Assembly (NCBI GenBank): GCA_022825065.1
Contig: JAJDYR010000022.1
Span: 97,021-161,020 of the forward strand
DNA: 64,000 nt
Reading direction: 5' to 3'
From: a bacterium
GTDB lineage: Bacteria > UBA8248
Positions 39,694 to 56,478 of this stretch are shown in pieces. The stretch's first letter is position 1. The number at the start of each line of letters is the position of its first letter. A model generated the notes under the pieces. It did not search any database and was not told the DNA's origin. It saw nothing but the letters and a program-made list of their open reading frames with translations. The translations under genes and the position numbers were made by a program.

Positions 39694-39812
39694 GGCAACC
39701 CCCCCCTACCCCCCCTTGTCAGGGGGGTATAAAAAGGCGATGCGTCCTCGCCGGGCTGAGGGGGCTTTGCTTTTTCTTGCCCCCCTGACAAGGGGGGGTA
39801 GGGGGGGTTGCC
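39694..39812. repeat. Family-A MITE-like element, copy A1. The 33-bp terminal inverted repeats are GGCAACCCCCCCTACCCCCCCTTGTCAGGGGGG ... CCCCCCTGACAAGGGGGGGTAGGGGGGGTTGCC. The internal segment is inverted relative to copies A3-A5.
   Basis: Read directly. The internal segment 'tataaaaaggcgatgcgtcctcgccgggctgagggggctttgctttttcttg' is the reverse complement of the A4 internal segment. Confidence 0.8.
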
Positions 39813-39958
39813 TTTCGACCAGGGAGATCGGGGGTTTGCGCGATAGCGGTCTTCCCGCTAAAGGCAATATCTCCCGACGAGGACTTTTTCACCAACCCCG
39901 GAATGCGCGCGCGGCGCATTTTGATGTAGGATAGGCGTATTCCTTACATGGAGAGAAC

Positions 39959-42478
39959 GTGCACCCCCTGCATCTGCTGGCGATTGGGTACATAGCGGGT
40001 TTGCTGACGGGCGGGCTTTCCTTGGACTTCGAGCGGGGAGACGCCGCCTCCACCTTGACCGCCGCGCTCGTTCTCGCCTTCTCGATCCTGCTCGCCTTGA
40101 GCCGCCGCATCCGGGGGAAGAGGCGGCGCGTCCTTGCGGCGCTCCTCCTGTTCCTGGGATTCGCCGCCTCTATCGCCGCCCCCGCGCTCCATCGCGGCGC
40201 CACGCCCGCGCATCACCTGCTGCGGCACATCCCCTACGAGCGCATGAACGTCACGGGCCATCTATCACGCCCCGTGGAGCGAAACGACGGCGAGACGCCC
40301 AGACCGCGCATCTACATCGACGCCGAGCGCGCCCTCATCCGGGGCGTCGAGGTTTCCATGACCGGCGTCGCGCGGATCACGCTGGCCTCGCGCCTCGAAA
40401 AGGTTCCAGAAGTCGGCGACAGGCTGCTCATCCGGCGCGTGCGTCTCGCCCCTCCCGAGCGCTTCAAGAACCCCGGCGCGTTCGACTACCGCGAATTCCT
40501 GCGCCTCCGGGGCGTCCATGCCGTCGGCTACAGTTCCGTGCGCAACCTCCACGTTTTAGAGCCGAGGGAGAAATGGGGCTGGCGGCGGCTTTTGTTTCAG
40601 TTCCGCGAGCGCATGAGCGCCCACATGAACGCCGTCTACCCCGAGCGCGCCGCCGGTCTCATCGAAGCGATGACCATCGGATTGCGAGATGGCATCGGCA
40701 CCGAACTCAAGGACGCCTTCAGGAGGTCGGGCGCGGCGCACCTGCTCGCCATCAGCGGTTTGCACGTGGGTTTCATCGCCGCTTTTTTCTTCTTCGCCCT
40801 GCTAGGCGTTCTGCGCAGACTCCCGCCCCGGGTTTTTCCCCTGCGCCCGTTCGTGCTCACGCCGTCCAAACTCGCATCGCTCGGCGTCATCCCCCTCGTG
40901 ATCCTCTTCGCGCTTTTGAGCGGCGCCCGGATATCCACCGTGCGCGCCACGATCATGATCGTCGCCTACCTCCTCACCCGGCTCCTGGAACGGCCGGGAA
41001 GCGCGATCCATTCCGTCCTGCTCGCCGCCCTGCTCATCCTGCTGGTCGAGCCCGGCTTCATCTGGGACGTGGGCTTCCAGCTCTCCTTCGTGGCGGTGAG
41101 CGCCATCATCCTGGCGGCGGACAGGCTCCCGCGGCCCGAGGCGCGCCTGAGGATATGGGAGAAAGCGTGGTGGCTGGCGCGGGCGCATCAACTCGCCATC
41201 ATCCAGTTGGTCGTCACCGCCGCGGTCACGCCGCTCACGGCGCTCCATTTCCATCAGGCGCATCCCATCGGCCTGATCGTGAACTTCCTGCTCATCCCCG
41301 TCGCATCGCTGCTCGTGCCTCTCTCCTTCGTGGCGAGCGCCCTCGCTGCGGTCCTGCCGGCGGGCGCGTCCGCTCTCCTGCTCCCCGCCACTTGGCTCAC
41401 CGGCGCCCTCGCTGGGTTCATGATCTCCGTTTCGACTTATTCCGCAGAAATCCCCTGGGCCAGCATCGTCGCGCCGAGCCCTCAGGTCTGGCTCATCGCC
41501 TCGATCTACGCCCTCATGGCTTTCGCCCTGCGCTCAAGGCGCGCGCGGAGGCGGCGGATCGCCTGGGCGGGCGTGTGCGGCCTGACGGTCTTCCTGCTCC
41601 TCCCCGACGCCGGCGCGCGGCCCGTGACGCCAAAGCGCACCACCCTGCTCCTGCCCGACGCCGGGAACGTGGACGCCTTTTTCCTGCGCCTGCCGGACGG
41701 AAAGGGCCTGGCGGTCGACGCCTCCGGCAAACGGACGGGCGGCTTCAACGCCTGGGGCAACGTGCTCGCTCCCCTGATGCGCCGGGAGAATGAAAGAGCC
41801 TGGCAAACCATGCTCAGCCTCTCCAGATATCCCAAAGAGCGACTCGCCGCGAACGCGTTCGCCTCGGGAATACGCGTCGAAAACTTGCTTCGCATCAGCG
41901 ACCTCGGCGCTTCGGCGCCTTATCGTTCCCGCTTCAGAAAGCGGCGCCATTCTCCCCGCACCATCTGGCGGATGAGCGGAGGCGGGGCGCGGGTTTCCCT
42001 GCGTTCCTGGGGAAGAGGCGCGACGGGCTTCGAGGTCGAAAACCCCCGCTCACGCTGGCTGCTCATGCTGCCCTCGAAATTCCCGGCTTTCGACGCCAGG
42101 TGGTTCCGGGGGAAGAGATACGACCTCGTGCGCCTGCCGGAGAACCTGCTCAGAAAACGGGAAGTGCTCGACTGGCTCGAAGCGCGTCCGCCCCGCGCCG
42201 TCGTGGCCGCTCCCCAAAGGGTGAAATGGATGCGGGCCGACCTGTGGCGGGAAACGAGGAGACGGCAGAGAAGACTGGGAGTCTATCGCCCCTGGCGCGG
42301 CGGGATGCTCCGCGTCCGGTCGGGCGGCGAAGGTGATACGGCGCGCATTTCCGTGGAGCGATACCGCGCCGCCGAAGCCTGGCCGGGCAGCGAGGCGGCC
42401 GGGTGGCGCGCGTTCCGCAGAAGCTTCGCCCCTGAATTTTCAAGCCGCGAAAAATGGAAACGACGCGCCGCCCGCTAG
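39959..42478 (+). CDS. comEC: DNA internalisation-related competence protein ComEC/Rec2. GTG start. The C-terminal metallo-beta-lactamase-like domain appears degenerate.
   Basis: N-terminal TM/DUF4131-like region. Competence domain 'AAHLLAISGLHVGFIAAFFFFALL...RISTVRATIMIVAYLL'. C-terminal 'LLPDAGNVDAFFLRLPDGKGLAVDASG...EVLDWLEARPP...LGVYRPWRGGMLRVRSGG' matches the ComEC MBL-domain framework, but no HxHxDH / HHGS His motifs are recognisable. Confidence 0.7.
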   Translation: MHPLHLLAIGYIAGLLTGGLSLDFERGDAASTLTAALVLAFSILLALSRRIRGKRRRVLAALLLFLGFAASIAAPALHRGATPAHHLLRHIPYERMNVTGHLSRPVERNDGETPRPRIYIDAERALIRGVEVSMTGVARITLASRLEKVPEVGDRLLIRRVRLAPPERFKNPGAFDYREFLRLRGVHAVGYSSVRNLHVLEPREKWGWRRLLFQFRERMSAHMNAVYPERAAGLIEAMTIGLRDGIGTELKDAFRRSGAAHLLAISGLHVGFIAAFFFFALLGVLRRLPPRVFPLRPFVLTPSKLASLGVIPLVILFALLSGARISTVRATIMIVAYLLTRLLERPGSAIHSVLLAALLILLVEPGFIWDVGFQLSFVAVSAIILAADRLPRPEARLRIWEKAWWLARAHQLAIIQLVVTAAVTPLTALHFHQAHPIGLIVNFLLIPVASLLVPLSFVASALAAVLPAGASALLLPATWLTGALAGFMISVSTYSAEIPWASIVAPSPQVWLIASIYALMAFALRSRRARRRRIAWAGVCGLTVFLLLPDAGARPVTPKRTTLLLPDAGNVDAFFLRLPDGKGLAVDASGKRTGGFNAWGNVLAPLMRRENERAWQTMLSLSRYPKERLAANAFASGIRVENLLRISDLGASAPYRSRFRKRRHSPRTIWRMSGGGARVSLRSWGRGATGFEVENPRSRWLLMLPSKFPAFDARWFRGKRYDLVRLPENLLRKREVLDWLEARPPRAVVAAPQRVKWMRADLWRETRRRQRRLGVYRPWRGGMLRVRSGGEGDTARISVERYRAAEAWPGSEAAGWRAFRRSFAPEFSSREKWKRRAAR

Positions 42479-42537
42479 CGGTGAGACCAACCCGCGCGTT
42501 TAGGGGCTGCTGACAGGTCCCTTTTTCGGGGGATAAA

Positions 42538-42640
42538 GGCACCCCCCCTACCCCCCCTTGTCAGGGGGGCAAGAAAAAACAAAACCCCTCAGCCCGGCGG
42601 TGGGCGTTGCCTTTTTATACCCCCGGACAAGGGGTTGTCG
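42538..42640. repeat. Family-A MITE-like element, copy A2 (right TIR degenerate/truncated)
   Basis: 'GGCACCCCCCCTACCCCCCCTTGTCAGGGGGGcaagaaaaaacaaaacccctcagcccggcgg...cctttttataCCCCCGGACAAGGGGTTG'. Confidence 0.7.
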
Positions 42641-42674
42641 AAAAAATCATCCTCGGTCGGAAATGACCACTGCC

Positions 42675-42812
42675 GTCATTCCGGCGAAAGCCGGAATCCA
42701 TTTTATCGCAGAATGACAATACCCTGGCTTTTCATTTCTCTGTCATTGGCGAGAATCAATCAGGAAATAAAAACAAAGGCAAAAAATGGATTCCGGCTTT
42801 CGCCGGAATGAC
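42675..42812. repeat. Family-B TIR element, copy B1. TIRs are GTCATTCCGGCGAAAGCCGGAATCCATT ... AATGGATTCCGGCTTTCGCCGGAATGAC. It translates as 'VIPAKAGIH' in spurious ORFs.
   Basis: Read directly. The internal AT-rich segment is the reverse complement of the B3 internal segment. Confidence 0.8.
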
Positions 42813-42899
42813 GAACAAAACCGCCCTGTCTCGTCGGGGCAGGCGGTATTGGGGGTTACGCGGCAGTCCCTCTTCCTACCCGCACGGATGGCCATAAAA

Positions 42900-43005
42900 C
42901 CTCATCCTGAGTAGGCGCGTAAGCGCCGTATCGAAGGATGGGGGCGTCTCCCGACGCACGAGAGGGCATCCTTCGATACGCGGCTCCGCCGCTACTCAGG
43001 ATGAG
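42900..43005. repeat. Long imperfect hairpin (about 106 nt) downstream of the TPP-enzyme gene. Arms are CCTCATCCTGAGTAG...GCGCCGTATCGAAGGATG and CATCCTTCGATACGCGGC...CTACTCAGGATGAG.
   Basis: Inverted-repeat arms read directly. Single copy in the window. Confidence 0.55.
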
Positions 43006-43049
43006 AGAGATGTGAAGACTTTTTCAACAGCCCCGTTTAAGGCGCAGGC

Positions 43050-44795
43050 TCAAGATTCCGCGTCGGGCGGCGGAGCCGTGGCGGCCCCGCCCCGGAAGGA
43101 TTTCACCGTCCGCGTCCACCGGGAGGAAAGCACGTCCCGGTCAATGGGACAGTCGATGACGTGAACGCCACCCCCCGACTGCGCATCGCGGATGGCGCTC
43201 CCCAACCCCTCCGCCGATTCCACCCGATGGCCATGCGCGCCGAAAGCGCGAGCGAGACTCGGGAAATCGGGGTTGTTGAGCGAGGTGGCGATGTAGCGCT
43301 CATTGAACACGTGCTTTTGCGAGTGCCTGAGCGCGTTGTATTCCCCGTCGTTGAAAATAAGATAGGTGACGGACAAACCGAGCGCCGTCGCCGTGGCGAG
43401 CTCACCGCAGGTCATGGTGAAGCTCCCGTCTCCCACGATCGCGCACACCGGCCGCTCGGGCGCGCCGAGCTTCGCCCCGATAGCCGCGCCTATGGCGTAG
43501 CCCATCGACTGGTAGGCTTCCGAGAGCAGGATGCTCCGGGGGCGGTGAATCGTAAACGCCTGCTCCATGAGCCAGCTCTGGGTGGCGGAGGAATCGGAGA
43601 TGAAAATCGTATCGGGCGAGGTGTTCTCGCGCAGCGTCTTCATCACGAAAAGACCGTGGAAGGGCGGCTCGGCCGGTTGCGCCAAAAACGAGCGCAGCCT
43701 CTCCTCATAGCGCCTTTTCCCCTCGCGCACGCGGACGTGACCTTCGGTAAGCGCAGTATCTTCTGCGTCCGAGATTCTCCTGAGCAGGCCATCGAGCGCG
43801 GGCTTGAGATCACTCACCAAGCCCACCGATGCCGGGTAATTGCGCCCGACCCGCTCGGGGTCGATGTCGATCTGAACGAGATTCTTCGGCATCGGCGCCT
43901 TGAAGTAAAAGGTGGCGAACTGCCCGAAGCCCGTGCCTAAGGCCAGACACGAATCCGCCTCTTCGAGCATCTCCTCACAGCCCAGGAAATGCACGAGGCC
44001 GAAGGAGAGCGGGTCGGCTTCGGAGAGAATCCCCCTCCCCTTCACGGAGGTGACGACGGGCGCGCCGAGCTTCGAAGCCAGAAGCTGCACTTCTCTTTCG
44101 CAGCGGGCGGTCACCACGCCGTTTCCCGCATAGATCACCGGACGTCTGGCCGCCAGGAGCGATTCTGCGATCTCATCGAGCGCGCGCTCATCGACGGGCG
44201 GCGGGGACGGCGGCCCTTCGAATTCGGGCCCTACGATCACCCGCTCCTCTTCGGCTTGGAACAGGTCCGCCTTCATCACCACCTGCACGGGCCCCGGCCT
44301 TCCCGCCTCCGCCCAGCGGAACGCGGCCTCAATAGCGGGCGCGATGCCTGCGACAGAATCGGGCGTGAACGATTTCTTGACGCAGCCGGCGAGCGCCTTT
44401 TCCATATCCACGTCGTGGATGGCGCTCCTGTTCCGCATGTTGTCGGCGAGGGTGGCCGTCACCGCGACGACGGGAACGGCATCCTCATAAGCGGAGCGAA
44501 GCGCGGTGGCGAGGTTCGTGCCGCCCGGCCCCGGCACGGTGAAGACCACGCCCGTCTTCCCGGACACCTTGGCGTAGCCGTCCGCCGCGAAGCCCGCCCC
44601 CTGTTCGTGGCGCGTGACGACCGGCACAGCGCCCGCCCCGTCGATCATCGCGTCGTAGACCGGCAGCGTGAGCGTGCCCGGAATACCAAAGATGTATTCC
44701 ACGCCCCTCGCATGAAGCGCATCGAGCAGGACCTGCGATCCGTTTCGCGCCACCTGAGACTCCTCCGGTTTCCTCATAGAAACAAAGCCCGCCAA
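43050..44795 (-). CDS. Thiamine-pyrophosphate-dependent enzyme (acetolactate-synthase large-subunit-like). Solitary: no ilvN/ilvH small subunit adjacent.
   Basis: 'VLLDALHARGVEYIFGIPGTLTLPVYDAM...', TPP-binding region 'GDGSFTMTCGELATA'. 581 aa. Confidence 0.75.
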   Translation of the reverse strand: MAGFVSMRKPEESQVARNGSQVLLDALHARGVEYIFGIPGTLTLPVYDAMIDGAGAVPVVTRHEQGAGFAADGYAKVSGKTGVVFTVPGPGGTNLATALRSAYEDAVPVVAVTATLADNMRNRSAIHDVDMEKALAGCVKKSFTPDSVAGIAPAIEAAFRWAEAGRPGPVQVVMKADLFQAEEERVIVGPEFEGPPSPPPVDERALDEIAESLLAARRPVIYAGNGVVTARCEREVQLLASKLGAPVVTSVKGRGILSEADPLSFGLVHFLGCEEMLEEADSCLALGTGFGQFATFYFKAPMPKNLVQIDIDPERVGRNYPASVGLVSDLKPALDGLLRRISDAEDTALTEGHVRVREGKRRYEERLRSFLAQPAEPPFHGLFVMKTLRENTSPDTIFISDSSATQSWLMEQAFTIHRPRSILLSEAYQSMGYAIGAAIGAKLGAPERPVCAIVGDGSFTMTCGELATATALGLSVTYLIFNDGEYNALRHSQKHVFNERYIATSLNNPDFPSLARAFGAHGHRVESAEGLGSAIRDAQSGGGVHVIDCPIDRDVLSSRWTRTVKSFRGGAATAPPPDAES

Positions 44796-45124
44796 AGCTA
44801 GGCGGCATCCGCGCGCGTGTCAACTTCCATACCCGTTTGCGCGCGCGGGGCCGATGGACTACCTTCTCGACTGATTCATTCGGGCGCACATGACGGGAGG
44901 CGGCGGTAGAGATTGTCGGGGTTCACAGCGAACAAGCCCGGCAGCGCGGGGTTGTTGAAAAGCCCTCTTGAGGAGGTCGAGTTTCTCCGCCTCGGAAAAC
45001 CCGGCGGCAAAACGAGCAAAAGCGGGATTCACTCCCTCATTGAGGGAGCTGTTGAAAAAGCCCTGACTTCGTGATTCGGCGTATGAAACCGGCCGGGGAG
45101 GGAGGGTTTGACACGATGGAATTG

Positions 45125-45152
45125 TAGGGGCGGTTTGCGAACCGCCCCTACG
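45125..45152. repeat. Family-C REP-like palindrome GTAGGGGCGGTTTGCGAACCGCCCCTAC (copy C1). It abuts the left end of B2.
   Basis: Perfect 28-bp palindrome read directly. Related copies at 54489..54516 and 50769..50792. Confidence 0.75.
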
Positions 45153-45172
45153 GGCGGATGCGGTTTTGATCG

Positions 45173-45307
45173 TCATTCCGGCGAAAGCCGGAATCCATTT
45201 GCGGATGCGGGTGAATGAACGGCGGCGTTTCATTCCCCGCCGATGCGCAAGAACCCTGACGAAAGGCAAAAAGCATAAAATGGATTCCGGCTTTCGCCGG
45301 AATGACG
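45173..45307. repeat. Family-B TIR element, copy B2
   Basis: Same 28-bp TIRs as B1 and B3, with a different internal segment. Confidence 0.8.
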
Positions 45308-45396
45308 GGGTGGCCAATTCCGAGCGAGGAGGGGTTTTTCAACAACCCTCTCAAGGGGGGAGTGATGCCGACTCTCAGCCGGGCGGCGGGCGCAGA

Positions 45397-46158
45397 ATGG
45401 AGAAAGCGATGTTCAGCCAACAGGCGATAGACGCTCTCAAAGACGCGGAATCGGTGGTCGTCCTCACCGGGGCGGGCGTGAGTGCGGAGAGCGGCGTGCC
45501 CACCTTCCGGGGAGCGGGCGGCCTGTGGCGCGAGTACAGCGCCACCTCGCTGGCGACGCCCGAGGCCTTTCGCGCCGACCCGAAGCTCGTCTGGGAGTTT
45601 TACAACTACCGCCGCGAGGTGCTGGAACCCCTGGCGCCCAACCCGGGACACTACGCCATCGCCTCGCTGGAGGAGCGCTTCGAGCGCTTCACCCTCATCA
45701 CGCAGAACATCGACAACTTGCACCGCGTCGCCGGGACGAGGGAGATCGTGGAGCTGCACGGCAACATCTGGCGCGTTCGCTGCACGAACCTGGGCTGTGA
45801 GCGCTACACGCTCGCGTGGGAGAACCGCGACGTGCCGATCGACCCCCTGCCGCCAAAGTGCGAGGCGTGCGAGAGCCTCCTGCGCCCCCACGTGGTGTGG
45901 TTCGGCGAGATGCTCGACCCCGAGCAGTTGCGCCGGGCGCTCGTTGCGGTGGATGATTGCGATTACCTGATCGTGGCGGGCACGTCCGCCGCGGTGCAGC
46001 CGGCCGCCTCCATGCCCATGACGGCCTCGCGGGGCGGCGCGTTCGTGCTCGAGGTGAACCCCGAGCCGACGGACATCAGCCCGTACATGAGCGAGGCGGT
46101 GCAGGAGCCCTCGGGCGTCGCCCTGCCCCGCCTGCTCGAAGCGGCTCTTGGAGGATAG
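45397..46158 (+). CDS. NAD-dependent protein deacylase, Sir2 family (CobB-like). Start at internal ATG 45397. The tracked ORF begins at 45166, inside repeat B2.
   Basis: 'VVVLTGAGVSAESGVPTFRG', 'QNIDNLHRVAG', Zn ribbon 'CTNLGCERY...CEAC'. Confidence 0.8.
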   Translation: MEKAMFSQQAIDALKDAESVVVLTGAGVSAESGVPTFRGAGGLWREYSATSLATPEAFRADPKLVWEFYNYRREVLEPLAPNPGHYAIASLEERFERFTLITQNIDNLHRVAGTREIVELHGNIWRVRCTNLGCERYTLAWENRDVPIDPLPPKCEACESLLRPHVVWFGEMLDPEQLRRALVAVDDCDYLIVAGTSAAVQPAASMPMTASRGGAFVLEVNPEPTDISPYMSEAVQEPSGVALPRLLEAALGG

Positions 46159-46160
46159 TG

Positions 46161-48773: not shown

Positions 48774-49009
48774 GAGGCCTCTCCTTCGCGGCGCATTTCG
48801 CGGATTTTAGCATGAGTGCAGGCGAGATGGGTATATGGGATTCTCGTGGAGAGTGAGGAGAATAAACCGGACTGGCGTGAGAAATCCCGGCGCGCGAAAC
48901 GCGGGCGGCCTCTTTTCAGGGCGGATGAAAAGCCTTACAGTCCTATGGCGCATTTCATACATCCACTCGATGCGGCCATCGCACCGATGAGACGGAAGGA
49001 GGCTCAGAC

Positions 49010-50071: not shown

Positions 50072-50122
50072 CTCTCATACGCGGAGACGCATTCGTTTTC
50101 ATATTCCCAAGGAGAAATACCG

Positions 50123-50599
50123 ATGGTGGAATCCGTAGACAAGGAAGTGATGGCCAAACAGGAGCGCCGGGTGCGGGCGACGCGCGCGGAGGGCTGCCGG
50201 GTGGAGCTGAAAGCGCGCAAGCACGCCTTCGTCGCCGATGAACCGGCGCAGGGCGGCGGGACCGACACGGGCCCCACGCCGCGCGAACTGGCGCTCGGCG
50301 CGCTTTCCGCCTGCATCACGGTCATCACGAACAAGGTGGCCGAGGGGCTCGACTTCAACGTCATCGCCCAGGAGGTGGAGGTGCGCGGCACGGCCGACCC
50401 CCGGGGCGCCAAGGACCCGGACAACGGCATCAGCCCGAACTTCGATTACGTGGAGGCGAAAATCCACCTGACCACGGACGAGCCCGAGGAGCGGGTGGCC
50501 GAACTCAAGCGCCAGCACCACGGGCGCTGCCCCATCTCCGCGCTCTACCGCGAGAGCGGCTGCGAACTCGTGGAGGAGTGGATCGTCAAGCGGCCGTGA
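50123..50599 (+). CDS. OsmC/Ohr-family peroxiredoxin-like protein
   Basis: 'GGGTDTGPTPRELALGALSACITV...HGRCPISALY' (the two conserved Cys). Confidence 0.75.
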   Translation: MVESVDKEVMAKQERRVRATRAEGCRVELKARKHAFVADEPAQGGGTDTGPTPRELALGALSACITVITNKVAEGLDFNVIAQEVEVRGTADPRGAKDPDNGISPNFDYVEAKIHLTTDEPEERVAELKRQHHGRCPISALYRESGCELVEEWIVKRP

Positions 50600-50616
50600 G
50601 GGGGGAAGTCCGCGCC

Positions 50617-50666
50617 GAAGGCGTCACCTTTACCCCCCTGACAAGGGGGGGGCCAGGGGGGTTGCC
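50617..50666. repeat. Family-A solo right half (right TIR plus the adjacent internal segment)
   Basis: 'gcgtcacctttACCCCCCTGACAAGGGGGGGGCCAGGGGGGTTGCC'. Confidence 0.6.
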
Positions 50667-50836
50667 TTTCAAGGGCGATGGTTTTCCGTGTACCCGCCCC
50701 TGCGGGTTCGTTTTAATTTGCGTGGTTTTTGTAGAAGCCGTTCGTGAACGGCCCTCCCCAGAAAAAGCGGGCGGTTCTCGAACCGCCCCTACGAAACCCG
50801 CAAACCCTGCCGGTTGCCGATACGCGCGCGGCGTAA

Positions 50837-50902
50837 GGACAACCCCTCGTGGTTGTCCCTTGCAGAAGGGGTCTTCGGACAGGCACGGTGGTCTGTCCCT
50901 AC
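50837..50902. repeat. Paired REP-like palindromes: family E1 (GGACAACCCCTCGTGGTTGTCC, 50837-50858) followed by family D1 (GGACAGGCACGGTGGTCTGTCCCTAC, 50877-50902)
   Basis: Read directly. The same E-then-D order recurs at 56943-57018. Confidence 0.7.
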
Positions 50903-50980
50903 AAACGAGAAAAGTTTTCGTTCGTCATTCCGGCGTCGGAGCCAACCAGTGCGGGGTTGTTGAAAAAGCCTTTACCAAAG

Positions 50981-51098
50981 GAGCACCCCCCCCTACCCCC
51001 CTTGTCAGGGGAGTAAGAAAGAGCAAACCCTCCACCACAGCGGCGAGGGGCGATGCCTTTTTTTACCCCCCTGACAAGGGGGGGTAGGGGGGGTTGCC
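50981..51098. repeat. Family-A MITE-like element, copy A3
   Basis: 'GAGCACCCCCCCCTACCCCCCTTGTCAGGGGAGtaagaaagagcaaaccctcc...gatgcctttttttACCCCCCTGACAAGGGGGGGTAGGGGGGGTTGCC'. Confidence 0.8.
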
Positions 51099-51377
51099 TT
51101 TCCATCCGAAAGGGGCTTCTCCTCTACCCTTGGCAAGGGGTCTTTTTAACAGCCCCGACGAGGGACGTCGCAGATAGAGCCGAAGGTTCGCCACCGACAT
51201 TGTAGGGGCCGCATACATGCGGCCCGGCCTTTCGCCGACAAAACACGGGTCGCATATATGTGTGGGGCGGCCCCGATGAGGGGCCGCCACCTACAGACCA
51301 CTACGAAGGTCGGTGGCCAGAATGGCGGGGCACGGCGAGCCTGGAGGCGGAGCGGGGCGCGAGAGAAACCTACGAGT

Positions 51378-51821
51378 CTACTCCACCTTCGCCTTCACGT
51401 TCTTTGCGAACTCGGAGAATATCTTGTTCGCCTGGTTCTTGATGACGGTGAAGCCCAGCGAGCCGAGCTTCCCGAACACGTCGACGCTCGAGTCGATGCG
51501 CACCTTCGTCTCGTTCTCCGAGACGGCCTCGAGCGTCACCTCGTTCTTCTGCTTGAGGCTCGCCGCGATTTTCGAGTCCTTCCCCTCGCCCACCGTGCGG
51601 ATGTACTCGGGCGCGCGGACTTCCTCGATGTTGATCTGAAGCTGAAAGCTCGCCTTGAGGAAACTGACCTTCTGCTCGACCCGCACGCCGTAGGTCGCGT
51701 CGTCTATTTTCTCCACGTCCTTCACGCCGGGCACGCAGGCGGCGAACTCCTCGACCTGCCAGATGAAGTCCCACACCTTCTCCCGGGGGGCGGCGACGGT
51801 AATCTCCTGGTTGAATTCCAT
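51378..51821 (-). CDS. SRPBCC-fold protein, CoxG family (carbon monoxide dehydrogenase subunit G-like)
   Basis: 'MEFNQEITVAAPREKVWDFIWQVEEFAACVPGVKDVEKIDDATYGVRVEQKVSFLKASFQLQ'. 147 aa. Confidence 0.6.
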   Translation of the reverse strand: MEFNQEITVAAPREKVWDFIWQVEEFAACVPGVKDVEKIDDATYGVRVEQKVSFLKASFQLQINIEEVRAPEYIRTVGEGKDSKIAASLKQKNEVTLEAVSENETKVRIDSSVDVFGKLGSLGFTVIKNQANKIFSEFAKNVKAKVE

Positions 51822-51931
51822 GTTGGGTGTCCTTTTTGCTCGGTGTGACGCGAAATGATAATCAAACGAGGGTATGATTCTAACAAGACGCGGCGTTTTA
51901 CTCCACAGACTCTCATCTTTCAGGAACGCAG

Positions 51932-52612
51932 ATGCCGGCCGAATCCCTCATCCTCTTCGCCAAACCGCCCCTCGCAGGCCGGGTGAAGACGCGCCTCGCC
52001 CAAAGCCTCGGGCGCGAGGGGGCCGCGCGTCTTTACGCGTGTTTCCTGAAAGACGCAGCCGAGACGGCGCGCTCGCTCAGCGATGCGAGGCCAAGCGCCG
52101 GCCTCGTCTGCGAGTGGACGCTGGAGCAAGGCGAATCGCCCGATGAGTTTCCGCTCACCGACTGGCTGCCCGGCGCCTTTCTCCACCGAATGCAGACGGG
52201 CGCCGACCTGGGGATGCGCATGGCGGCGGCCCTGGGCCGATGCCTGGCTTTCGGGAGACGGGCTGTGCTCATCGGCACGGATTTCCCGGATCTGCCGCAC
52301 GAGGTTCTGATAGACGCGTTCGAGAAGCTGGATTGCGGGGATGAGCCTACCGTCGCGCTCGGGCCCGCTGCGGACGGGGGTTACTACCTGATCGGGATGA
52401 ACCGGTTCGTCCCGGAAATTTTCACCGGCATCCCCTGGAGCACGGGCGAGGTGTTCCCGCGCACGATGGAGAAAGCCGCCGCACTCGGCGTCGGGACTGC
52501 CCTCCTTCCCGAGTGGCGCGACGTGGACGAGGCGGATGATCTGGAGGCGCTCAAGGGCCGCCTCTCGCAGGACGCCTCACGCGCCCGGCACACGCGGGAC
52601 TTTCTTGGCTGA
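51932..52612 (+). CDS. DUF2064 / TIGR04282-family protein (predicted glycosyltransferase-like)
   Basis: 'LILFAKPPLAGRVKTRLAQSLG...AVLIGTDFPDLP...GPAADGGYYLIGM'. Confidence 0.6.
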   Translation: MPAESLILFAKPPLAGRVKTRLAQSLGREGAARLYACFLKDAAETARSLSDARPSAGLVCEWTLEQGESPDEFPLTDWLPGAFLHRMQTGADLGMRMAAALGRCLAFGRRAVLIGTDFPDLPHEVLIDAFEKLDCGDEPTVALGPAADGGYYLIGMNRFVPEIFTGIPWSTGEVFPRTMEKAAALGVGTALLPEWRDVDEADDLEALKGRLSQDASRARHTRDFLG

Positions 52613-52691
52613 GCTACATTCTGTATTGCGCTGAATCCTTGGAGGTGAAAGGATTGCACGTCTAAGTCCGCCGAAAGATGAGGAGCACGCA

Positions 52692-53321
52692 TTGCCGAAC
52701 GAAACCGTCGTAGAAGCCACCTATACCTATTGCGTCCACTGAGCCTGGTGTCTCATCGCGACCGGGCGGTTGCGAACACTGAGCGAGCAGGCGGGCGGGC
52801 GCCTCGCCATCCGCTACCGCGCCTTTCTGCTCTCGCCCGAGCCGGACCACCGTCCGGCCCGCAAGGAGGCCATCATGGGCCACTGGGCGATGGCGAAAAG
52901 CCACCCCGGCGGCGAGGCGATCAACCCCGAACTCATGGCGCGCCGCGAATTTCCTTATCCTCATTCCACGCCGGGCGCGGTCGCCATCAAGGCATTCGCC
53001 GCCCAGCTCCCCGAGTGCGAGGGCGAGTATCTCGAAGCCGTGGAGCGAACGCATCTGGTCGAGTGCCTGAGCATCGACGACGCCGGCGTGCTCGTGGCCG
53101 CCGCCGAGCGGCTGGGGGCGGAGCCCGCGATGATGCGCGAGGTCATGGCCGACCCGGATATGGAAAAGCGCGTGTGGGCGGATCACGTCGAGGCCGTGAA
53201 CGCAGGCATCCAGTCCACGCCCACGGTCGATTTTGCCGGCAAATACAGGATCACAGGCGCGCAGCCCATGGCCATATTCGAGCAAACTTATGAGCGCGCC
53301 CTGGCCGATCAGGACACCTAA
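52692..53321 (+). CDS. DsbA/FrnE-like thiol-disulfide oxidoreductase, predicted selenoprotein. In-frame TGA (Sec) at 52740-52742 in a U-A-W-C redox motif. TTG start after GAGGAG. 209 aa including Sec.
   Basis: The frame is open from 52635 through the TGA into the tracked ORF 52770..53321. 'ETVVEATYTYCVH[U]AWCLIATGRLRTLSEQAGGRLAIRYRAFLLSP' aligns to the FrnE 'SDVVCPWCYIGKRRLE...VEVRWRPFELNP', with TGA at the first Cys. The C-terminal 'GIQSTPTVDFAGKYRITGAQPMAIFEQ' matches the DsbA-family 'GVxGVPTFVIxGKYxISGAQP'. Confidence 0.6.
52752..52783 (+). promoter_or_regulatory. Candidate bacterial SECIS stem-loop beginning 10 nt after the in-frame UGA. It has a 4-bp lower stem (CUCA/UGAG), a 7-bp upper stem (CGCGACC/GGUUGCG, including one G-U pair) and a GGGC apical loop about 22-25 nt past the UGA.
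   Basis: Base-pairing worked out by hand from 'ctcatCGCGACCgggcGGTTGCGaacactgag'. Confidence 0.4.
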
Positions 53322-53328
53322 ACCCACT

Positions 53329-54225
53329 ATGCGAGAAGGCGGCCGGGCTGCAAGAATAGTCGCCGCTCTGGCGGCCCTCCTGGTGCTTGCGGGCTGCGCG
53401 AACATCCGCGCCCTCTTCCTGCCCAAAGAAGAGAAGAAACCGGCGCTCGAAACAAAACGGCCACGGATGAAAAAACCCGAAGAGCCGCATTTTTTCCGCG
53501 TCCTGACGCTTCCCACTTACGACATGGCGAAAGAAGCGTATGACAAGACGGCCATCCTCGGGATCCCCTTCCGCAAGGTGGCCCTCGAGTTCAGGGATAA
53601 AGCGACGTCCATCCGCAAGGCCGAGCCCTCGGAGTTCAGCGTCGGCGTCCGGGCCGAGGTGCAGGATTTGAAACTCGGGGGGACGTCGAGAATCATCGAG
53701 TCGGACGAGGGGTTTTCCATCCTCCAGAAAACGACGAGCGCGCATTACGAACGCGCCCTCAAGCTCATGGAGAAGAAAAAAGACGAGGCCGCCCTCGAAC
53801 TCATCCGCCGCGACCTCGAGATCAACCCCGGAAATGTGGACGCCTGGCTCGCCCTGGCGAAGATGATGGACGAGGCGGGTGATCTGGAGGAGACGCTCGC
53901 CGCGTACGGGAAGGCCCGCGAACTCGACCCCGAGAACCCGGTCGTCTCCAACAGGTACGCCAGATACCTGGTCTCCCAGTACCGCTACGAAGAGGCGGAG
54001 AAGGTGCTCAAGGCGGCGGAGGAATTATCACCCGAAGACACGGGCGTGCTCCTGAACCTCGCCTCCCTGCTCGTCTACCTGAACAAGGAGCCGGACTTCG
54101 CCTCGCGCCTCATCGAGCGCGGCTCCAGAATCGACCCCGGCCGCCCGGAATGGTACCGCCTCTCGGGCGTGATTCAGAAACGAAGGGAACTCGGCATCGC
54201 GCCGAAAGCGAAGGGGGTGAATTAG
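53329..54225 (+). CDS. TPR-repeat lipoprotein. Lipobox 'LLVLAGC'. Start at internal ATG 53329, 7 nt after the DsbA-like stop.
   Basis: 'MREGGRAARIVAALAALLVLAGCANI', TPR-like 'NVDAWLALAKMMDEAGDLEETLAAYGKARELDPENPVV'. Confidence 0.5.
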   Translation: MREGGRAARIVAALAALLVLAGCANIRALFLPKEEKKPALETKRPRMKKPEEPHFFRVLTLPTYDMAKEAYDKTAILGIPFRKVALEFRDKATSIRKAEPSEFSVGVRAEVQDLKLGGTSRIIESDEGFSILQKTTSAHYERALKLMEKKKDEAALELIRRDLEINPGNVDAWLALAKMMDEAGDLEETLAAYGKARELDPENPVVSNRYARYLVSQYRYEEAEKVLKAAEELSPEDTGVLLNLASLLVYLNKEPDFASRLIERGSRIDPGRPEWYRLSGVIQKRRELGIAPKAKGVN

Positions 54226-54230
54226 AAACC

Positions 54231-54258
54231 GTAGGGACAGGTCGCGACCTGTCCCTAC
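54231..54258. repeat. Family-D REP-like palindrome GTAGGGACAGGTCGCGACCTGTCCCTAC (copy D2)
   Basis: Perfect palindrome read directly, 6 nt after the lipoprotein stop. Confidence 0.7.
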
Positions 54259-54343
54259 CACTCCTTTGTCTCTTTTTCCTATATTCCTGAAACCCTGCCT
54301 TTCGGCCGCTCTCCCCTTACTGGCCGGGGTTAATAGAATGGTC

Positions 54344-54484
54344 GTCATTCCGGCGAAAGCCGGAATCCATTTGTTTTGCCTTTGTTTTTTATTTCCTGAT
54401 TTCTTCCCGCCAATGACGAGGAAATGAAAAGCCGGCGTATTGTCATTCTGCTTTAGAATGGATTCCGGCTTTCGCCGGAATGAC
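54344..54484. repeat. Family-B TIR element, copy B3 (inverse orientation relative to B1). Immediately followed by the family-C palindrome C2 (54489-54516).
   Basis: TIRs identical to B1. The internal segment is the reverse complement of the B1 internal segment. Confidence 0.8.
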
Positions 54485-54602
54485 GGCTGTAGGGGCGGAT
54501 CGCGAACCGCTCCTACGGGTCGAACCCGACCGGAGAAGAGCCGCCCCAAAAACCCTCCTGGCAGAAGGGGTAAAAACCGCGGCGCGGCCTCTCGCCTGGA
54601 AA

Positions 54603-54719
54603 AGCAACCCCCCCTACCCCCCCTTGACAGGGGGGCAAGAAAGAGCAAAACCCCCTCGGCCCGGCAGGGCGCATCGCCTTTTTTTACCCCCCTGACAAGG
54701 GGGGGTAGGGGGGGTTGCT
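54603..54719. repeat. Family-A MITE-like element, copy A4
   Basis: 'AGCAACCCCCCCTACCCCCCCTTGACAGGGGGGcaagaaagagcaaaaccccctcggcccggcagggcgcatcgcctttttttACCCCCCTGACAAGGGGGGGTAGGGGGGGTTGCT'. Confidence 0.8.
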
Positions 54720-54918
54720 TTTACCTCCTGATGAAAAGGGGGCTTTTTCAAAGGCCCTTCTTCAGCCAGCCGACCCCTCCTTCCTCGTTCGCGTCAAACC
54801 CTCCTTCCACACTCGCGTTCGACCCCTTGGCTCCCCGCGCATGAATGCGTCATAATGCCGCCGTTCTTAAACCGCGCGAACTTACACAGAAGAACACCAA
54901 ATCATAGAGGGTATACGC

Positions 54919-56271
54919 ATGAGCGCCGAGCTTTTGATCAAGAACGCGAAAATCGTGACGCCGACCGACACCTACGAGGGCTGCGTCTATGTGGATGAGG
55001 GGCGGATCGCCGCCATCACGCACAAGGCCGAGGCGAATGCCGCGCGCGAAATCGACGCCGCGGGCCGGTACCTCCTGCCGGGCATGGTGGATGAGCACGT
55101 CCACATGATGGACCCGGGCTTCACCGACCGGGAGGACTGGACGACGGGCACCGAGGCGGCGGCACGGGGCGGCATCACCACCGTGATCGACCATCACCGG
55201 AGCGACCCGCTCGTCTACACGCGGGAGATTCTCGAAGACAAGACGGCCTACGTCGACTCGCGCTCGGTGGTGGATTTCGGGCAGTTGGGGGGTCTCGACG
55301 TCGACAACCTCGAACACCTGCGCCCCATGTGGGAGGGCGGCGCGCTGGGCTTCAAGGGCTTCATGTGCGATCTGCACGGCGTGCCCGACCTCTCAGAAGG
55401 CGTATTGTTGAACATCATGCGCGAGGTCAATTCTTTCGGCGGCACGGTGATGCTGCACTGCGAGAGCGATTCGATTCTCCGCAAATCGAAAGAAAAAATA
55501 GACGCCGATAACCGGACGGACTACATGTGCATCAGCGACTGGCGAAACCCCGAGAGCGAGTACGTGGCGACGCTGGACGCCGTGGCGCTCGCCGAACTCA
55601 CGGGCTGCAAGGTGCTGGTGGCGCACGTGAGCCAGCCCGTCCTGCTCGAAGCCATCCAGGCGGCGCGCGGGCGCGGCGCGAGAATTTTCGCGGAAAGCTG
55701 CCCCCAGTATTTCTATCTCGACCATTCGCATCTCGAAGAACTGGGGCCGTTCGTGAAATTCACGCCGGTCATCCGCTCGGCGGAGACGCGCGACGGCATG
55801 CGCGTGGCGCTCGGACGCGACATGGTGGACACCATCGGCACCGACCACTGCCCCTTCCCCCGCCAGCGGAAGGTGGACGGCCTCGAGAACATCCACGACG
55901 CGCCCTTCGGGATACCGGGCGTGGAGACGACGGTACGCCTGATGCTGAACGCCGTGAGCGAGGGCGTCCTGACGCTGAACCAGATGGTGCGGGTCTGCTG
56001 CGATCAGCCCGCGCGCGTCTTCAACATCCACCCCCGCAAGGGGTGCATCCAGGTGGGCGCGGACGCGGACTTCATCGTCGTGGACATGGACTTGGAGGAG
56101 ACGCTGCGCGATGAGGATATCGTCTCCAAGTGCAAGTGGACGCCGTTCAACGGCTGGACGATGAAGGGCGCGCCCGTGATGACGCTCGTGCGCGGCGAGG
56201 TCGTGATGGAAGACGGCGAGGTGACCGGACGCGCGGGGTACGGCGAGACCGTCGAGCGTCCGGGGGGTTGA
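54919..56271 (+). CDS. Cyclic amidohydrolase of the dihydroorotase/allantoinase/dihydropyrimidinase family
   Basis: 'LLPGMVDEHVHMMDPGFTDREDWTTGTEAAARGGITTVIDH' (HxH metal motif), 'TDHCPFP'. 450 aa. Confidence 0.75.
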   Translation: MSAELLIKNAKIVTPTDTYEGCVYVDEGRIAAITHKAEANAAREIDAAGRYLLPGMVDEHVHMMDPGFTDREDWTTGTEAAARGGITTVIDHHRSDPLVYTREILEDKTAYVDSRSVVDFGQLGGLDVDNLEHLRPMWEGGALGFKGFMCDLHGVPDLSEGVLLNIMREVNSFGGTVMLHCESDSILRKSKEKIDADNRTDYMCISDWRNPESEYVATLDAVALAELTGCKVLVAHVSQPVLLEAIQAARGRGARIFAESCPQYFYLDHSHLEELGPFVKFTPVIRSAETRDGMRVALGRDMVDTIGTDHCPFPRQRKVDGLENIHDAPFGIPGVETTVRLMLNAVSEGVLTLNQMVRVCCDQPARVFNIHPRKGCIQVGADADFIVVDMDLEETLRDEDIVSKCKWTPFNGWTMKGAPVMTLVRGEVVMEDGEVTGRAGYGETVERPGG

Positions 56272-56296
56272 GGGGACGCCCCCCTCGGCTTGAAAA

Positions 56297-56478
56297 CCAA
56301 CCCCCCCTACCCCCCCTTAACAGGGGGGCAAAAAAGACCGACTCCCCGGCAAGTGGGGGATATGAAAAAGACGACGCCCGCCGCCGGGCGGAGAGGCTTT
56401 GCTTTTTTCTGCCCGCCGCCGGGCTAGGGGGTTTGCTTTTTCTTGCCCCCCTGACAAGGGGGGGTAGGGGGGGTTGCC
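56297..56478. repeat. Family-A MITE-like element, copy A5 (about 180 bp; internal insertion)
   Basis: Both 33-bp TIRs intact. The internal segment is about 60 bp longer than in A3 and A4. Confidence 0.8.

What the first reader, a model, noticed from the sequence alone, without database searches (positions are those of the whole stretch)
39694..56478. Family A: roughly 117-bp MITE-like element with unusual 33-bp poly-C/poly-G terminal inverted repeats (5 full copies plus 1 solo half; both orientations)
Copies at 39694-39812 (inverted), 42538-42640 (right TIR decayed), 50981-51098, 54603-54719, 56297-56478 (about 60-bp internal insertion) and a solo right half at 50617-50666. The TIR GGCAACCCCCCCTACCCCCCCTTGTCAGGGGGG contains its own sub-palindrome CCCCCCTTGTCAGGGGGG. 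Each element can therefore fold as a long hairpin, or each end can form a local hairpin. C7/G7 tracts are slippage-prone and potential i-motif/G4 formers. The internal 50-bp segment (CAAGAAAGAGCAAAACCCCCTCAGCCCGGCGAGGGCGCATCGCCTTTTTTTA) is conserved and ends in a T-run just before the TIR, so in one orientation an element would resemble an intrinsic terminator. No transposase is present, so the element is non-autonomous. Spurious ORFs across it encode 'PLTRGGRGG' peptides and contaminate ORF calls, for example the aldo/keto reductase ORF extended to 39791.
Basis: seen in the sequence. Interest (0 to 1): 0.65.

Follow-up and report, generated by a model that had tools for sequence, protein, structure and literature searches.

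The report
Palindromic core of nested mini-transposons
A roughly 120-base hairpin-forming repeat with C7/G7-rich ends is real and occurs many times between the genes of sponge-dwelling Nitrospinota bacteria, but it behaves as the conserved core of larger miniature transposons, not as a transposon with working ends of its own.

Summary
The family has at least 381 ends in 1.5 Mb sampled from a clade of sponge-associated Nitrospinota MAGs and metagenomes. The poly-C/poly-G inverted repeats have no target-site duplications (0 of 68), and no insertion sequence (IS) carries them as ends. Instead, 76% of doublets lie just inside inward-pointing TIRs (GGGGCTGTTGAAAAAG) of a second family, here called X. 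X has an autonomous 1.5-kb IS1182-family IS with 5-bp duplications. Whole composites (X TIR, linker, A, linker, X TIR) recur at unrelated loci, and similarity stops at the X TIRs. [quoted passage not shown] That insertion explains the "decayed" copy at 42538-42640. Within one shell type, A's interior flips orientation and swaps sequence type. Occupancy differs between genomes that are 86-95% identical. I found no RAYT, no Rfam match, no covariation and no orientation bias. Best reading: a non-autonomous palindromic core carried by IS1182-derived MITEs and reshuffled by recombination. An independent REPIN-like mechanism is not excluded. It is a new variant of a known kind, of moderate interest.

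The parts
39691..39815 (-). Family A copy 1. It is a full 125-bp doublet with the interior in inverted orientation.
   Evidence: nhmmer score 132 bits on the minus strand; sequence; RNA fold -111/-97 kcal/mol.
39654..39899 (.). Family X shell around copy 1. Its order is X TIR (GAGGCTGTTGAACAAG), linker a (CCCCTGAAAGGGAAACCCCAT), A, linker c (CGACCAGGGAGATCGGGGGTTTGCGCG...), X TIR.
   Evidence: X TIR matches at 39654(+) and 39882(-). The a-A-c architecture aligns with 7 other loci, and similarity ends at the X TIRs.
42535..42630 (+). Family A copy 2. The left end and interior are intact. The right end is truncated inside the sub-hairpin loop, after GGACAA.
   Evidence: Sequence; nhmmer hit to model positions 3-108. 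The junction is the same as at the IS-X insertions in L096 and L017.
42631..43034 (.). X-bounded element (TIRs GGGGTTGTCGAAAAAA ... CTTTTTCAACAGCCCC) that interrupts copy 2. It carries other repeat modules.
   Evidence: X pair listed; X TIR at 43017(-).
50619..50669 (+). Solo right-hand unit of family A. It lies 20 nt after the stop codon of the OsmC-like gene.
   Evidence: nhmmer hit to model positions 72-125; sequence; Pfam OsmC at 50123-50599.
50979..51101 (+). Family A copy 3. It is a full doublet whose left end is slightly degenerate.
   Evidence: nhmmer score 127 bits; sequence.
50953..51156 (.). X shell around copy 3.
   Evidence: X TIR matches at 50953(+) and 51139(-).
54600..54722 (+). 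Family A copy 4. It is a full doublet and served as the reference copy.
   Evidence: nhmmer score 133 bits. The arms 54600-54656 and 54666-54722 are 84% complementary.
54741..54758 (-). Inward-pointing X TIR to the right of copy 4. No partner was found on the left.
56293..56481 (+). Family A copy 5. It is a 189-bp variant with two left-type inner arms and a 31-nt internal direct repeat at 35-nt spacing.
   Evidence: D12, I14.
56498..56515 (-). Inward-pointing X TIR to the right of copy 5.

Best explanation
Family A is a non-coding, non-autonomous palindromic module. It consists of two inverted 36-nt units (AAARSCAA-C7-TA-C7-TTGTCA-G6), each with its own 6-bp-stem hairpin, around a short exchangeable interior.

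It is not a transposon with its own working ends. It is the highly conserved core, or cargo, of composite miniature elements with this layout: X TIR, linker module, A, linker module, X TIR. The outer 16-18-bp TIRs (GGGGCTGTTGAAAAAG) are those of an IS1182-family insertion sequence found in the same bacteria. I infer that the composites are moved in trans by that DDE transposase.

The relation runs both ways. The IS and its MITEs prefer to insert into the loops of C-run/G-run hairpins, including A's own sub-hairpin, where they make 5-bp duplications (GACAA or TTGTC). This builds nested, mosaic repeat clusters between genes.

I infer that recombination between the near-identical 36-nt units does three things. 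It flips A's interior, swaps interiors and linkers between copies, and keeps the ends homogeneous.

Shown: the anatomy, copy distribution, lack of duplications at A ends, nesting inside X, the autonomous IS-X, loop targeting, and turnover between genomes.
Inferred: that the IS1182 transposase moves A-bearing shells, that recombination homogenises the ends, and any effect on transcription.
For: 1. No duplication at A ends: 0 of 68 doublets for k>=4. No empty palindromic target site exists in the sampled DNA.
2. Nesting inside X. Of 123 doublets, 43 have an inward-pointing X TIR within 130 nt on both sides, 51 on one side and 29 on neither. Inward TIRs occupy 137 of 246 sides; outward TIRs occupy 8.
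3. Linkers depend on A. Linker modules a, c, d and e are followed by an A end in 110 of 129 occurrences.
4. Specific architectures recur at unrelated loci: a-A-c 8 times, a-A-d 8 times, b-A-e 5 times. Alignments lose similarity exactly outside the X TIRs.
5. An autonomous partner for X exists. It is a 1.51-kb element with a 480-aa transposase that scores 355 bits on NCBIfam IS1182 (cut-off 270) and also matches DUF772 and DDE_Tnp_1_6. Six copies were seen. Their 5-bp duplications are GACAA (L096, L017), TTGTC (L074) and CCTTG (L075).
6. X pairs show an excess of duplications. For k>=7, 12 were observed against about 2.3 expected. These include shells that contain A (L009, L035, L122, L133, L171).
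7. X targets hairpin loops. Of 454 X ends, 28% abut a C-run plus 3-7 nt, against 3.2% of random positions. Twenty-four abut A loops.
8. The interior is exchangeable. It lies in both orientations and in different types (A1, B) within one shell architecture. The syntenic copy in L064 has the same ends but a different interior.
9. Occupancy turns over. In 8 orthologous spacers between genomes with 86-95% gene identity, A is absent from one genome in 6 and differs in form in 2.
10. A ends are better conserved than X TIRs: 0.8 edits per 28 nt (1.96 for ends not selected by the probe) against 2.0 mismatches per 16 nt.
Against: - Only 35% of doublets have X TIRs on both sides, and 24% have none.
- Perfect 5-bp duplications at anchored X-shell boundaries are rare: 3 of 54. 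The two complete shells in the window show none.
- X TIRs bracket many other modules as well. They may therefore mark the edges of repeat clusters rather than true partner ends.
- If whole composites transposed as units, all their parts should be equally diverged. The A ends are clearly better conserved than the X TIRs and linkers. That needs an extra assumption: gene conversion, selection, or independent activity of A.
- Loci were chosen by an exact 25-mer of the A end, which inflates the apparent conservation.
- No transposition of a shell has been observed directly.
Confidence: 0.55

Rival explanations
1. Family A is an independently mobile REPIN-like element. It would be a REP doublet that folds as a hairpin in single-stranded DNA and is copied by a RAYT/TIRYT-type HUH tyrosine transposase encoded once per genome. 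Its frequent position inside X shells would reflect target preference or safe-haven accumulation.
For: - The architecture fits. Inverted doublets of a short unit with its own hairpin are common, with 280 of 381 ends in doublets. Solo units exist. There is no duplication. Location is strictly extragenic, at 148 of 153.
- A GTAG tetranucleotide sits next to the sub-hairpin stem.
- The ends are far better conserved than the interior or the surrounding shell.
- Minor loop variants are concordant between the two arms: 5 observed against 0.68 expected.
- Classical GTAG-plus-palindrome REPs co-occur in the same spacers.
- The literature describes tyrosine transposases flanked by partly self-complementary TIR families organised as dimers (PMC3733652).
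Against: - No Y1 transposase was found by tblastn with E. coli TnpA-REP, IS200 or IS608 TnpA in 1.5 Mb around 381 ends. The TnpA-REP query was verified against 4ER8.
- GTAG lies 3' of the hairpin and is embedded in G-runs. It is not an unpaired 5' tag.
- The linker modules are tied to A, and the composites repeat as wholes.
- The terminal 8-mers co-vary with the outer flank, not with the partner arm: 15 matches against 14.5 expected.
Confidence: 0.2
2. One reading: a classical DDE-type MITE whose 33-bp poly-C/poly-G inverted repeats are the transposase-binding ends, derived from an unseen IS with the same ends.
For: The size, the inverted repeats, the copy number, both orientations and the intergenic location all fit.
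Against: - No duplications: 0 of 68.
- No IS with A ends in 1.5 Mb. Both ISs found between A ends have their own TIRs and duplications.
- The flanks are recurrent modules, not target DNA.
- The interior is replaced by unrelated sequences while the ends stay identical.
Confidence: 0.05
3. Family A is kept mainly because it serves the host or the carrier element. It could act as a bidirectional transcription terminator or mRNA-end stabiliser. It could be a binding site for a DNA-structuring protein. It could be a 'clasp' whose hairpin brings the two X TIRs together. Under this view its spread is secondary.
For: - The hairpin is very stable and is followed on both strands by TTGCYTTT. The A ends head the terminator-like list (48 sites against 18.8 expected in the region).
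- Convergent spacers are enriched about two-fold: 34 elements in 67 spacers, against 71 in 283 tandem spacers.
- The ends and the C7 tract lengths are conserved (88-92% C7), although homopolymers are mutable.
Against: - Orientation shows no bias relative to the upstream gene: 11 with and 10 against.
- Occupancy of orthologous spacers is not conserved.
- Sixteen elements sit in divergent promoter spacers.
- There is no covariation signal: the covariation term is -0.08 and 1 of 32 pairs is compensatory.
- No expression data are available.
Confidence: 0.15
4. Family A encodes a structured small RNA or a cis-regulatory RNA.
For: The predicted structure is strong, with z-scores down to -10.
Against: - No Rfam family matches at gathering thresholds.
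- No promoter-like site lies in or beside the copies.
- Both orientations occur at equal frequency.
- The pairs are invariant rather than covarying.
- The interior is replaceable by unrelated sequence.
Confidence: 0.03

Closest known systems
REPINs / REP doublets and BIMEs (bacterial interspersed mosaic elements) of Proteobacteria (PMC3116915, PMC3733652)
   Same: - Short GC-rich units, each with its own hairpin, are arranged mostly as inverted doublets that fold into one long hairpin.
- Solo units occur.
- Location is strictly extragenic.
- There is no target duplication.
- Spacers between units are variable or exchangeable.
- The units combine with other conserved motifs into mosaics.
   Different: - No RAYT was found.
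- GTAG is embedded between two G7 runs, 3' of the stem, rather than forming an unpaired 5' tag.
- The unit is longer (36 nt) and dominated by homopolymers.
- Most copies sit inside the TIRs of a DDE-type IS family.
Prokaryotic MITEs such as Correia, ERIC (127-bp imperfect palindromes), Chunjie and QMITE2 (review PMC10969869)
   Same: - The length is under 500 bp, and the element is non-coding and multi-copy.
- Transcripts or single strands would fold very stably; QMITE2 is quoted at about -113.
- Size variants arise from internal insertions and deletions.
- An autonomous IS acts in trans; here this applies to the outer X shell.
   Different: - A's own inverted repeats lack duplications and have no matching IS.
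- The element is GC-rich, not AT-rich.
- The transposase-related ends are a separate, outer, less conserved pair of repeats.
IS1397 / ISKpn1 (IS3 family) and ISPpu9/ISPpu10. These ISs insert specifically into REP hairpins. The IS1397 and ISKpn1 details are from my own knowledge; ISPpu9 in REPs is described in PMC8450116.
   Same: An IS uses the loop or stem of an abundant extragenic palindrome as its preferred target.
   Different: Here the IS belongs to the IS1182 family and makes 5-bp duplications in the loop of C6-N6-G6 hairpins. Its MITE derivatives in turn carry the targeted palindrome, which makes the nesting reciprocal.
TIRtrons/TIRYT repeats of Stenotrophomonas and Acidobacteria (PMC3733652, section 16)
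   Same: They are families of partly self-complementary inverted repeats, found as dimers or clusters, that are unrelated to classical GTAG REPs.
   Different: Those families are defined by flanking a tyrosine transposase gene. No such gene was found next to A.

Membership tests
MITE (DDE-mobilised), applied to family A's own ends | Flanking direct repeats (target-site duplications), at least in young copies | tested here: not met
   0 of 68 doublets have a direct repeat of 4 nt or more at the boundaries. Values for k=2-3 are at chance level.
MITE (DDE-mobilised), applied to family A's own ends | Terminal inverted repeats shared with an autonomous IS that supplies the transposase | tested here: not met
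   No IS bounded by A ends was found in 1.5 Mb around 381 ends. The candidates L077, L127 and L114 are either ISs with their own TIRs inserted into A or ordinary genes. Whole genomes could not be scanned.
MITE (DDE-mobilised), applied to family A's own ends | Small (<500 bp), non-coding and multi-copy at unrelated loci | tested here: met
   The typical size is 116-190 bp. There are 73 full copies in the first 90 loci and 381 ends in 182 sequences.
MITE, applied to the X-bounded composite that contains A | TIRs identical to those of an autonomous IS of a known family | tested here: met
   IS-X has ends GGGGCTGTTGAAAAACCC / GGGTTTTTCAACAGCCCC and an IS1182-family transposase scoring 355 bits (cut-off 270).
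MITE, applied to the X-bounded composite that contains A | Target-site duplications flanking the composite | tested here: inconclusive
   Three of four independent full-length IS insertions have clean 5-bp duplications. X pairs show an excess of long duplications (12 against about 2.3 expected for k>=7). Only 3 of 54 have an exact 5-mer at anchored boundaries. The window's own shells have none.
REP / REPIN | A short palindromic unit, mostly in inverted doublets that form a hairpin, located extragenically | tested here: met
   The unit is 36 nt with a 6-bp stem and 6-nt loop. There are 140 adjacent left-right pairs among 381 ends, with a median spacer of 54 nt. 148 of 153 elements are intergenic.
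REP / REPIN | An unpaired GTAG (or CGTC) tag at one end of the palindrome | tested here: inconclusive
   GTAG is present and almost invariant (G7-TA-G7). However, it lies 3' of the sub-hairpin, inside G-runs, and it is paired in the long hairpin.
REP / REPIN | A cognate RAYT gene flanked by the repeats | tested here: inconclusive
   tblastn gave no hit with a verified TnpA-REP, IS200 TnpA or IS608 TnpA in 1.5 Mb. This sample is only a small fraction of the genomes, whose full sequences these tools cannot search.
IS1182 family (autonomous partner of the outer TIRs) | A transposase matching the family model above its curated cut-off | tested here: met
   NF033551 scores 355.2 and 335.4 bits against a cut-off of 270. 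Pfam gives DUF772 + DDE_Tnp_1_6 + DDE_Tnp_1.
Known RNA family (Rfam) | A match at the gathering threshold | tested here: not met
   There are 0 matches in the 64-kb window.
Integron attC site | Structure conserved while sequence varies, with arrays of promoterless cassettes in one orientation next to an integrase | tested here: not met
   The sequence is near-invariant. The flanking genes are housekeeping genes on both strands (HisRS, ComEC, a TPP enzyme, an amidohydrolase). No integrase lies in the region.

The most novel reading that the evidence does not exclude
The C7-TA-C7/hairpin unit is an independently active element of a new kind. It would be recognised by structure: a hairpin, plus possibly a G-quadruplex or i-motif. 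An enzyme not yet identified in these Nitrospinota would copy or homogenise it without target duplication. It would also have co-evolved with an IS1182-family element that uses its hairpin loop as a landing pad and carries it as cargo. That would make a reciprocal two-element system that builds the mosaic intergenic DNA of sponge symbionts.
Probability: 0.15. Interest if true: 0.7.

Novelty: new variant of a known kind. Interest (0 to 1): 0.4.

Why it matters
- Annotation. The repeats extend and fake ORFs. The aldo/keto reductase ORF runs about 88 codons too long, and peptides such as PLTRGGRGG and ATPPTPPCQGG appear in gene calls. The repeats probably also break short-read assemblies of an uncultured symbiont clade.
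- Biology of the repeats. Perfect 36-57-nt palindromic arms made of C7/G7 runs persist in many copies. Their persistence raises the question of how these bacteria tolerate long palindromes and quadruplex-prone DNA.
- Target choice by an IS. An IS1182-family element that prefers hairpin loops, and whose miniature derivatives carry the very palindrome it targets, would be a clear natural case of structure-guided target choice and self-reinforcing nesting. It is testable with long-read sponge metagenomes.
- Scale of the finding. If the element is ordinary, it is still a new repeat family for a phylum in which none has been described.

Tried and rejected
1. Target-site duplications at A ends, k=2-9: none beyond chance.
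2. Empty palindromic target AAARSCAA|TTGSYTTT, and empty b-b' shells: none found.
3. RAYT/IS200-type genes. A motif regex gave two hits that translate to junk. tblastn hits in L022 and L069 fall inside or antisense to ordinary genes. Nothing turned up in the enlarged 1.5-Mb set.
4. Genes between widely spaced inverted A ends.
   - L077 holds an IS256-family IS inserted into A with a 9-bp duplication.
   - L127 holds IS-X.
   - L114 holds an ordinary 264-aa ORF that I did not run through Pfam.
   - L021 holds two separate elements.
5. Rfam at gathering thresholds: nothing.
6. Covariation in the long hairpin: the pairs are invariant, so the test is uninformative.
7. Sigma-70-like promoter inside A: none. 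TTGTCA/TATAAA are only 6 nt apart.
8. Orientation bias as a terminator: none, at 11 with and 10 against.
9. Integron attC reading (CAAC...GTTG ends): rejected on gene content and sequence invariance.
10. Clean empty-versus-filled orthologous sites. All eight comparisons differ by whole mosaic blocks, so the exact insertion boundaries of A alone could not be read.
11. Literature search for the motif: it returned only mitochondrial control regions and viral quadruplex papers.
12. One fuzzy-regex script timed out. I replaced it with a blastn-short analysis.


Full report
**1.
The 33-nt end motif occurs 7 times at 3 or fewer mismatches, against 0 expected in shuffles. A profile built from three window copies recovers all six: 39690-39816 (minus orientation), 42535-42637, 50619-50669 (solo half), 50978-51101, 54599-54723 and 56293-56481.

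Each full copy is almost one continuous hairpin, with arms of 50-57 nt at 84% complementarity. Folded as RNA, the copies give -87 to -111 kcal/mol, with z-scores of -7.7 to -10.2. All copies lie between genes: aldo/keto reductase | ComEC, ComEC | TPP enzyme, OsmC | unknown ORF, TPR protein | amidohydrolase, and downstream of the amidohydrolase.

The spurious-ORF claim is correct. Frame 3 of the right end reads PLTRGGRGGC. The listed reductase ORF begins inside copy 1, about 88 codons upstream of a plausible start, MTMRRR. Rfam finds nothing in the window.

**2. Distribution.**
The hits come from MAGs labelled Nitrospinota, Nitrospinaceae or simply "bacterium". One contig each is binned as Binatia and as Peribacteria.

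Many of these loci share 85-96% nucleotide identity in their genes, so most belong to one clade. L064 (Nitrospinota COS4_bin_23) is syntenic with window 34793-42449.

The metagenome collection gave 91 stretches. They come mainly from LXNJ01 and MKWU01, which are the Petrosia ficiformis and Aplysina aerophoba sponge metagenomes (PMC5099237). In total I counted 381 ends and 140 adjacent left-right pairs in 1.5 Mb.

**3. Anatomy across 182 sequences.**
- The conserved terminal unit is AAARSCAA-C7-TA-C7-TTGTCA-G6, 36 nt. Conservation collapses one base further out.
- In the first set, 125 of 220 ends share an identical 28-mer, and 88-92% of tracts are exactly C7.
- The interior is much less constant. 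There are two subtypes of the roughly 50-nt interior, unrelated interiors of 80-100 nt (types B and C), and 330-420-bp forms with other palindromic modules at the apex.
- Elements are intergenic in 148 of 153 cases. Convergent spacers are about two-fold enriched.
- Orientation is random relative to the upstream gene, at 11 with and 10 against.
- RNAalifold finds invariant pairs, with a covariation term of -0.08. That result neither supports nor refutes an RNA role.

**4. Family A does not behave as a MITE through its own ends.**
No direct repeat of 4 nt or more flanks any of 68 doublets. No empty palindromic target exists in the sampled DNA.

The flanks are not unique DNA. Half of all ends adjoin one of five recurrent linker modules. 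Four of these (a, c, d, e) are followed by an A end in 110 of 129 occurrences. The terminal 8-mer variant goes with the outer flank, not with the partner arm (15 matches against 14.5 expected). Minor loop variants are concordant between arms (5 against 0.68 expected).

No IS carries A ends. The two ISs found between A ends are insertions into A. One is an IS256-family element with its own TIRs and a 9-bp duplication. The other is the IS described next.

**5. The second family, X, gives the key.**
The motif GGGGCTGTTGAAAAAG occurs 13 times in the window, against 0.06 expected. It brackets copy 1 (39654/39882) and copy 3 (50953/51139). It lies to the right of copies 4 and 5.

Across all loci, 43 of 123 doublets have inward-pointing X TIRs within 130 nt on both sides, 51 on one side and 29 on neither. 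Inward TIRs outnumber outward ones by 137 to 8.

Particular architectures recur at unrelated loci in different genomes: a-A-c 8 times, a-A-d 8 times, b-A-e 5 times. Their alignments lose similarity just outside the X TIRs.

X has an autonomous form. It is a 1.51-kb element with these same TIRs and a 480-aa transposase of the IS1182 family. NCBIfam gives 355 bits against a cut-off of 270, and Pfam gives DUF772 + DDE_Tnp_1_6 + DDE_Tnp_1. Six copies were seen.

**6. The relation is reciprocal.**
IS-X is inserted in the loop of A's sub-hairpin, with a 5-bp duplication GACAA (L096, L017) or TTGTC (L074). In L075 it is inserted in the loop of another C/G hairpin, with CCTTG. L127 shares its left flank with L096 but has a different right flank, which is what IS-mediated rearrangement would produce.

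Of 454 X ends, 28% abut a C-run plus 3-7 nt, against 3.2% of random positions. Twenty-four abut A loops.

The window's "decayed" copy 2 is such a case. Its right end stops at ...GGACAA and continues with an X TIR.

X pairs show more long duplications than chance (12 against about 2.3 expected for k>=7). Exact 5-mers at anchored boundaries are few (3 of 54).

**7. Dynamics.**
Within one shell architecture, A's interior occurs in both orientations and in different types. The syntenic copies in the window and in L064 share ends but not interior.

I compared eight orthologous spacers between genomes of 86-95% gene identity. A is absent from one genome in six of them and differs in form in two. The differences are always whole mosaic blocks.

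A ends (0.8 edits per 28 nt; 1.96 for ends not selected by the probe) are better conserved than X TIRs (2.0 mismatches per 16 nt).

**8. Interpretation.**
The best-supported reading has four parts.
- A is a palindromic core carried inside IS1182-derived miniature elements.
- Those elements are moved in trans by the IS1182-family transposase acting on the outer TIRs.
- A's hairpins are themselves preferred landing sites for the same IS family.
- The near-identical 36-nt units support recombination that flips and swaps interiors and homogenises the ends.

The last three points are inferences. The main weakness is that the A ends are more conserved than the shell. The passenger model explains this only by gene conversion, selection, or extra activity of A. 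An independent REPIN-like mechanism therefore stays open.

I searched for the enzyme that mechanism requires and did not find it. TnpA-REP (verified against 4ER8), IS200 TnpA and IS608 TnpA gave no credible hit in 1.5 Mb. This sample is a small part of the genomes. The literature does describe tyrosine transposases flanked by partly self-complementary TIR families (PMC3733652).

**9. Comparison with known systems.**
- In architecture A resembles REPINs/BIMEs (PMC3116915, PMC3733652).
- In size and fold it resembles ERIC or QMITE2-type MITEs (PMC10969869).
- It fails the MITE test on duplications and on a matching IS.
- It fails, or leaves open, the REPIN test on the GTAG tag position and on a RAYT.
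- The outer shell passes the MITE test on IS-matching TIRs and partly on duplications.
- Hairpin-loop targeting by an IS is known for IS1397/ISKpn1 (my own knowledge) and for ISPpu9 in REPs (PMC8450116). To my knowledge it has not been described for IS1182-family elements that also carry the targeted palindrome.
- No paper in the held library contains the bacterial motif.

**10. Verdict.**
The MITE label is only half right. The element is a new variant of the known class of extragenic palindromic repeats, embedded in a reciprocal nesting relation with an IS1182-family element. Interest is moderate.

Noticed in passing
window 39654, 39882, 43017, 44948, 45045, 45332, 50953, 51139, 54741, 56498, 56767, 56838, 56906; L127 2766-4276; L096 5861-7370; L017 3407-4912; L074 1081-2593; L075 227-1744: Family X has TIR GGGGCTGTTGAAAAAG, seen 13 times in the window. 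It includes many MITE-like shells and an autonomous 1.5-kb IS1182-family IS. X ends preferentially abut half-hairpins (C-run plus 3-7 nt; 28% against 3.2% at random positions). The full IS copies make 5-bp duplications in hairpin loops.
   Followed up: yes
L127 2766-4276 compared with L096 5861-7370 and L123: Identical IS-X copies share the same left flank but have different right flanks. L096 has a clean GACAA duplication. L127 continues into an inverted A. This suggests an IS-mediated inversion or rearrangement polymorphism among closely related strains in different samples.
   Followed up: partly
L077 4880-6285 and 6499-7722: An IS256-family (Transposase_mut) IS is inserted inside a family A copy with a 9-bp duplication TTTTTCTTG. 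A second IS256-family transposase gene lies immediately downstream on the other strand.
   Followed up: partly
window 54231-54258, 45128-45152, 50769-50793, 54493-54517, 50877-50902, 56993-57018: Several classical GTAG-plus-GC-palindrome repeats (REP-like) lie in the same spacers. Examples are GTAGGGACAGGTCGCGACCTGTCCCTAC and CGTAGGGGCGGTTCG..AACCGCCC. The same types fill many X shells in other loci. Their presence hints that a RAYT may exist somewhere in these genomes.
   Followed up: no
window 42669-42840, 45167-45308, 54339-54490: Another repeat family is built on GTCATTCCGGCGAAAGCCGGAATCCATTT. It occurs as inverted pairs about 100 nt apart, and arms up to 117 nt are 85% complementary between loci (I1). 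It lies inside X shells and would encode 'VIPAKAGIH'-type spurious peptides.
   Followed up: no
L042 1100-1500, L005 1100-1470, L001 1580-2000, L060 5030-5410, and many X shells: A roughly 230-bp nested palindromic module (CAACTCCCCCCTTGAGGGGGAGTCG...GGTGGGGGG...CCCCCCACC...CTCCCCCTCAAGGGGGGAGTTG) occurs at the apex of family A hairpins and, independently, inside X shells.
   Followed up: no
L041 4115-4149 (CAZWBM010000008.1, binned as Candidatus Peribacteria, 44% GC) and L023 2623-2743 (binned as Candidatus Binatia): A 30-nt exact A end sits alone in a low-GC contig assigned to a CPR bacterium. A full copy sits in a contig binned as Binatia. Possible causes are chimeric assembly, mis-binning or horizontal transfer. 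I did not resolve which.
   Followed up: partly
window 38526-39791 (minus strand): The aldo/keto reductase ORF is over-extended through family A copy 1 by about 88 codons. The Pfam domain starts at residue 105, and a plausible start (MTMRRRTLGNTG) lies near 39527.
   Followed up: yes
window 1-17500: G+C is lower here (50-57%, against 60-67% elsewhere). The stretch is one long, tightly packed run of minus-strand genes with almost no spacers and no family A or X copies. I did not annotate it.
   Followed up: no
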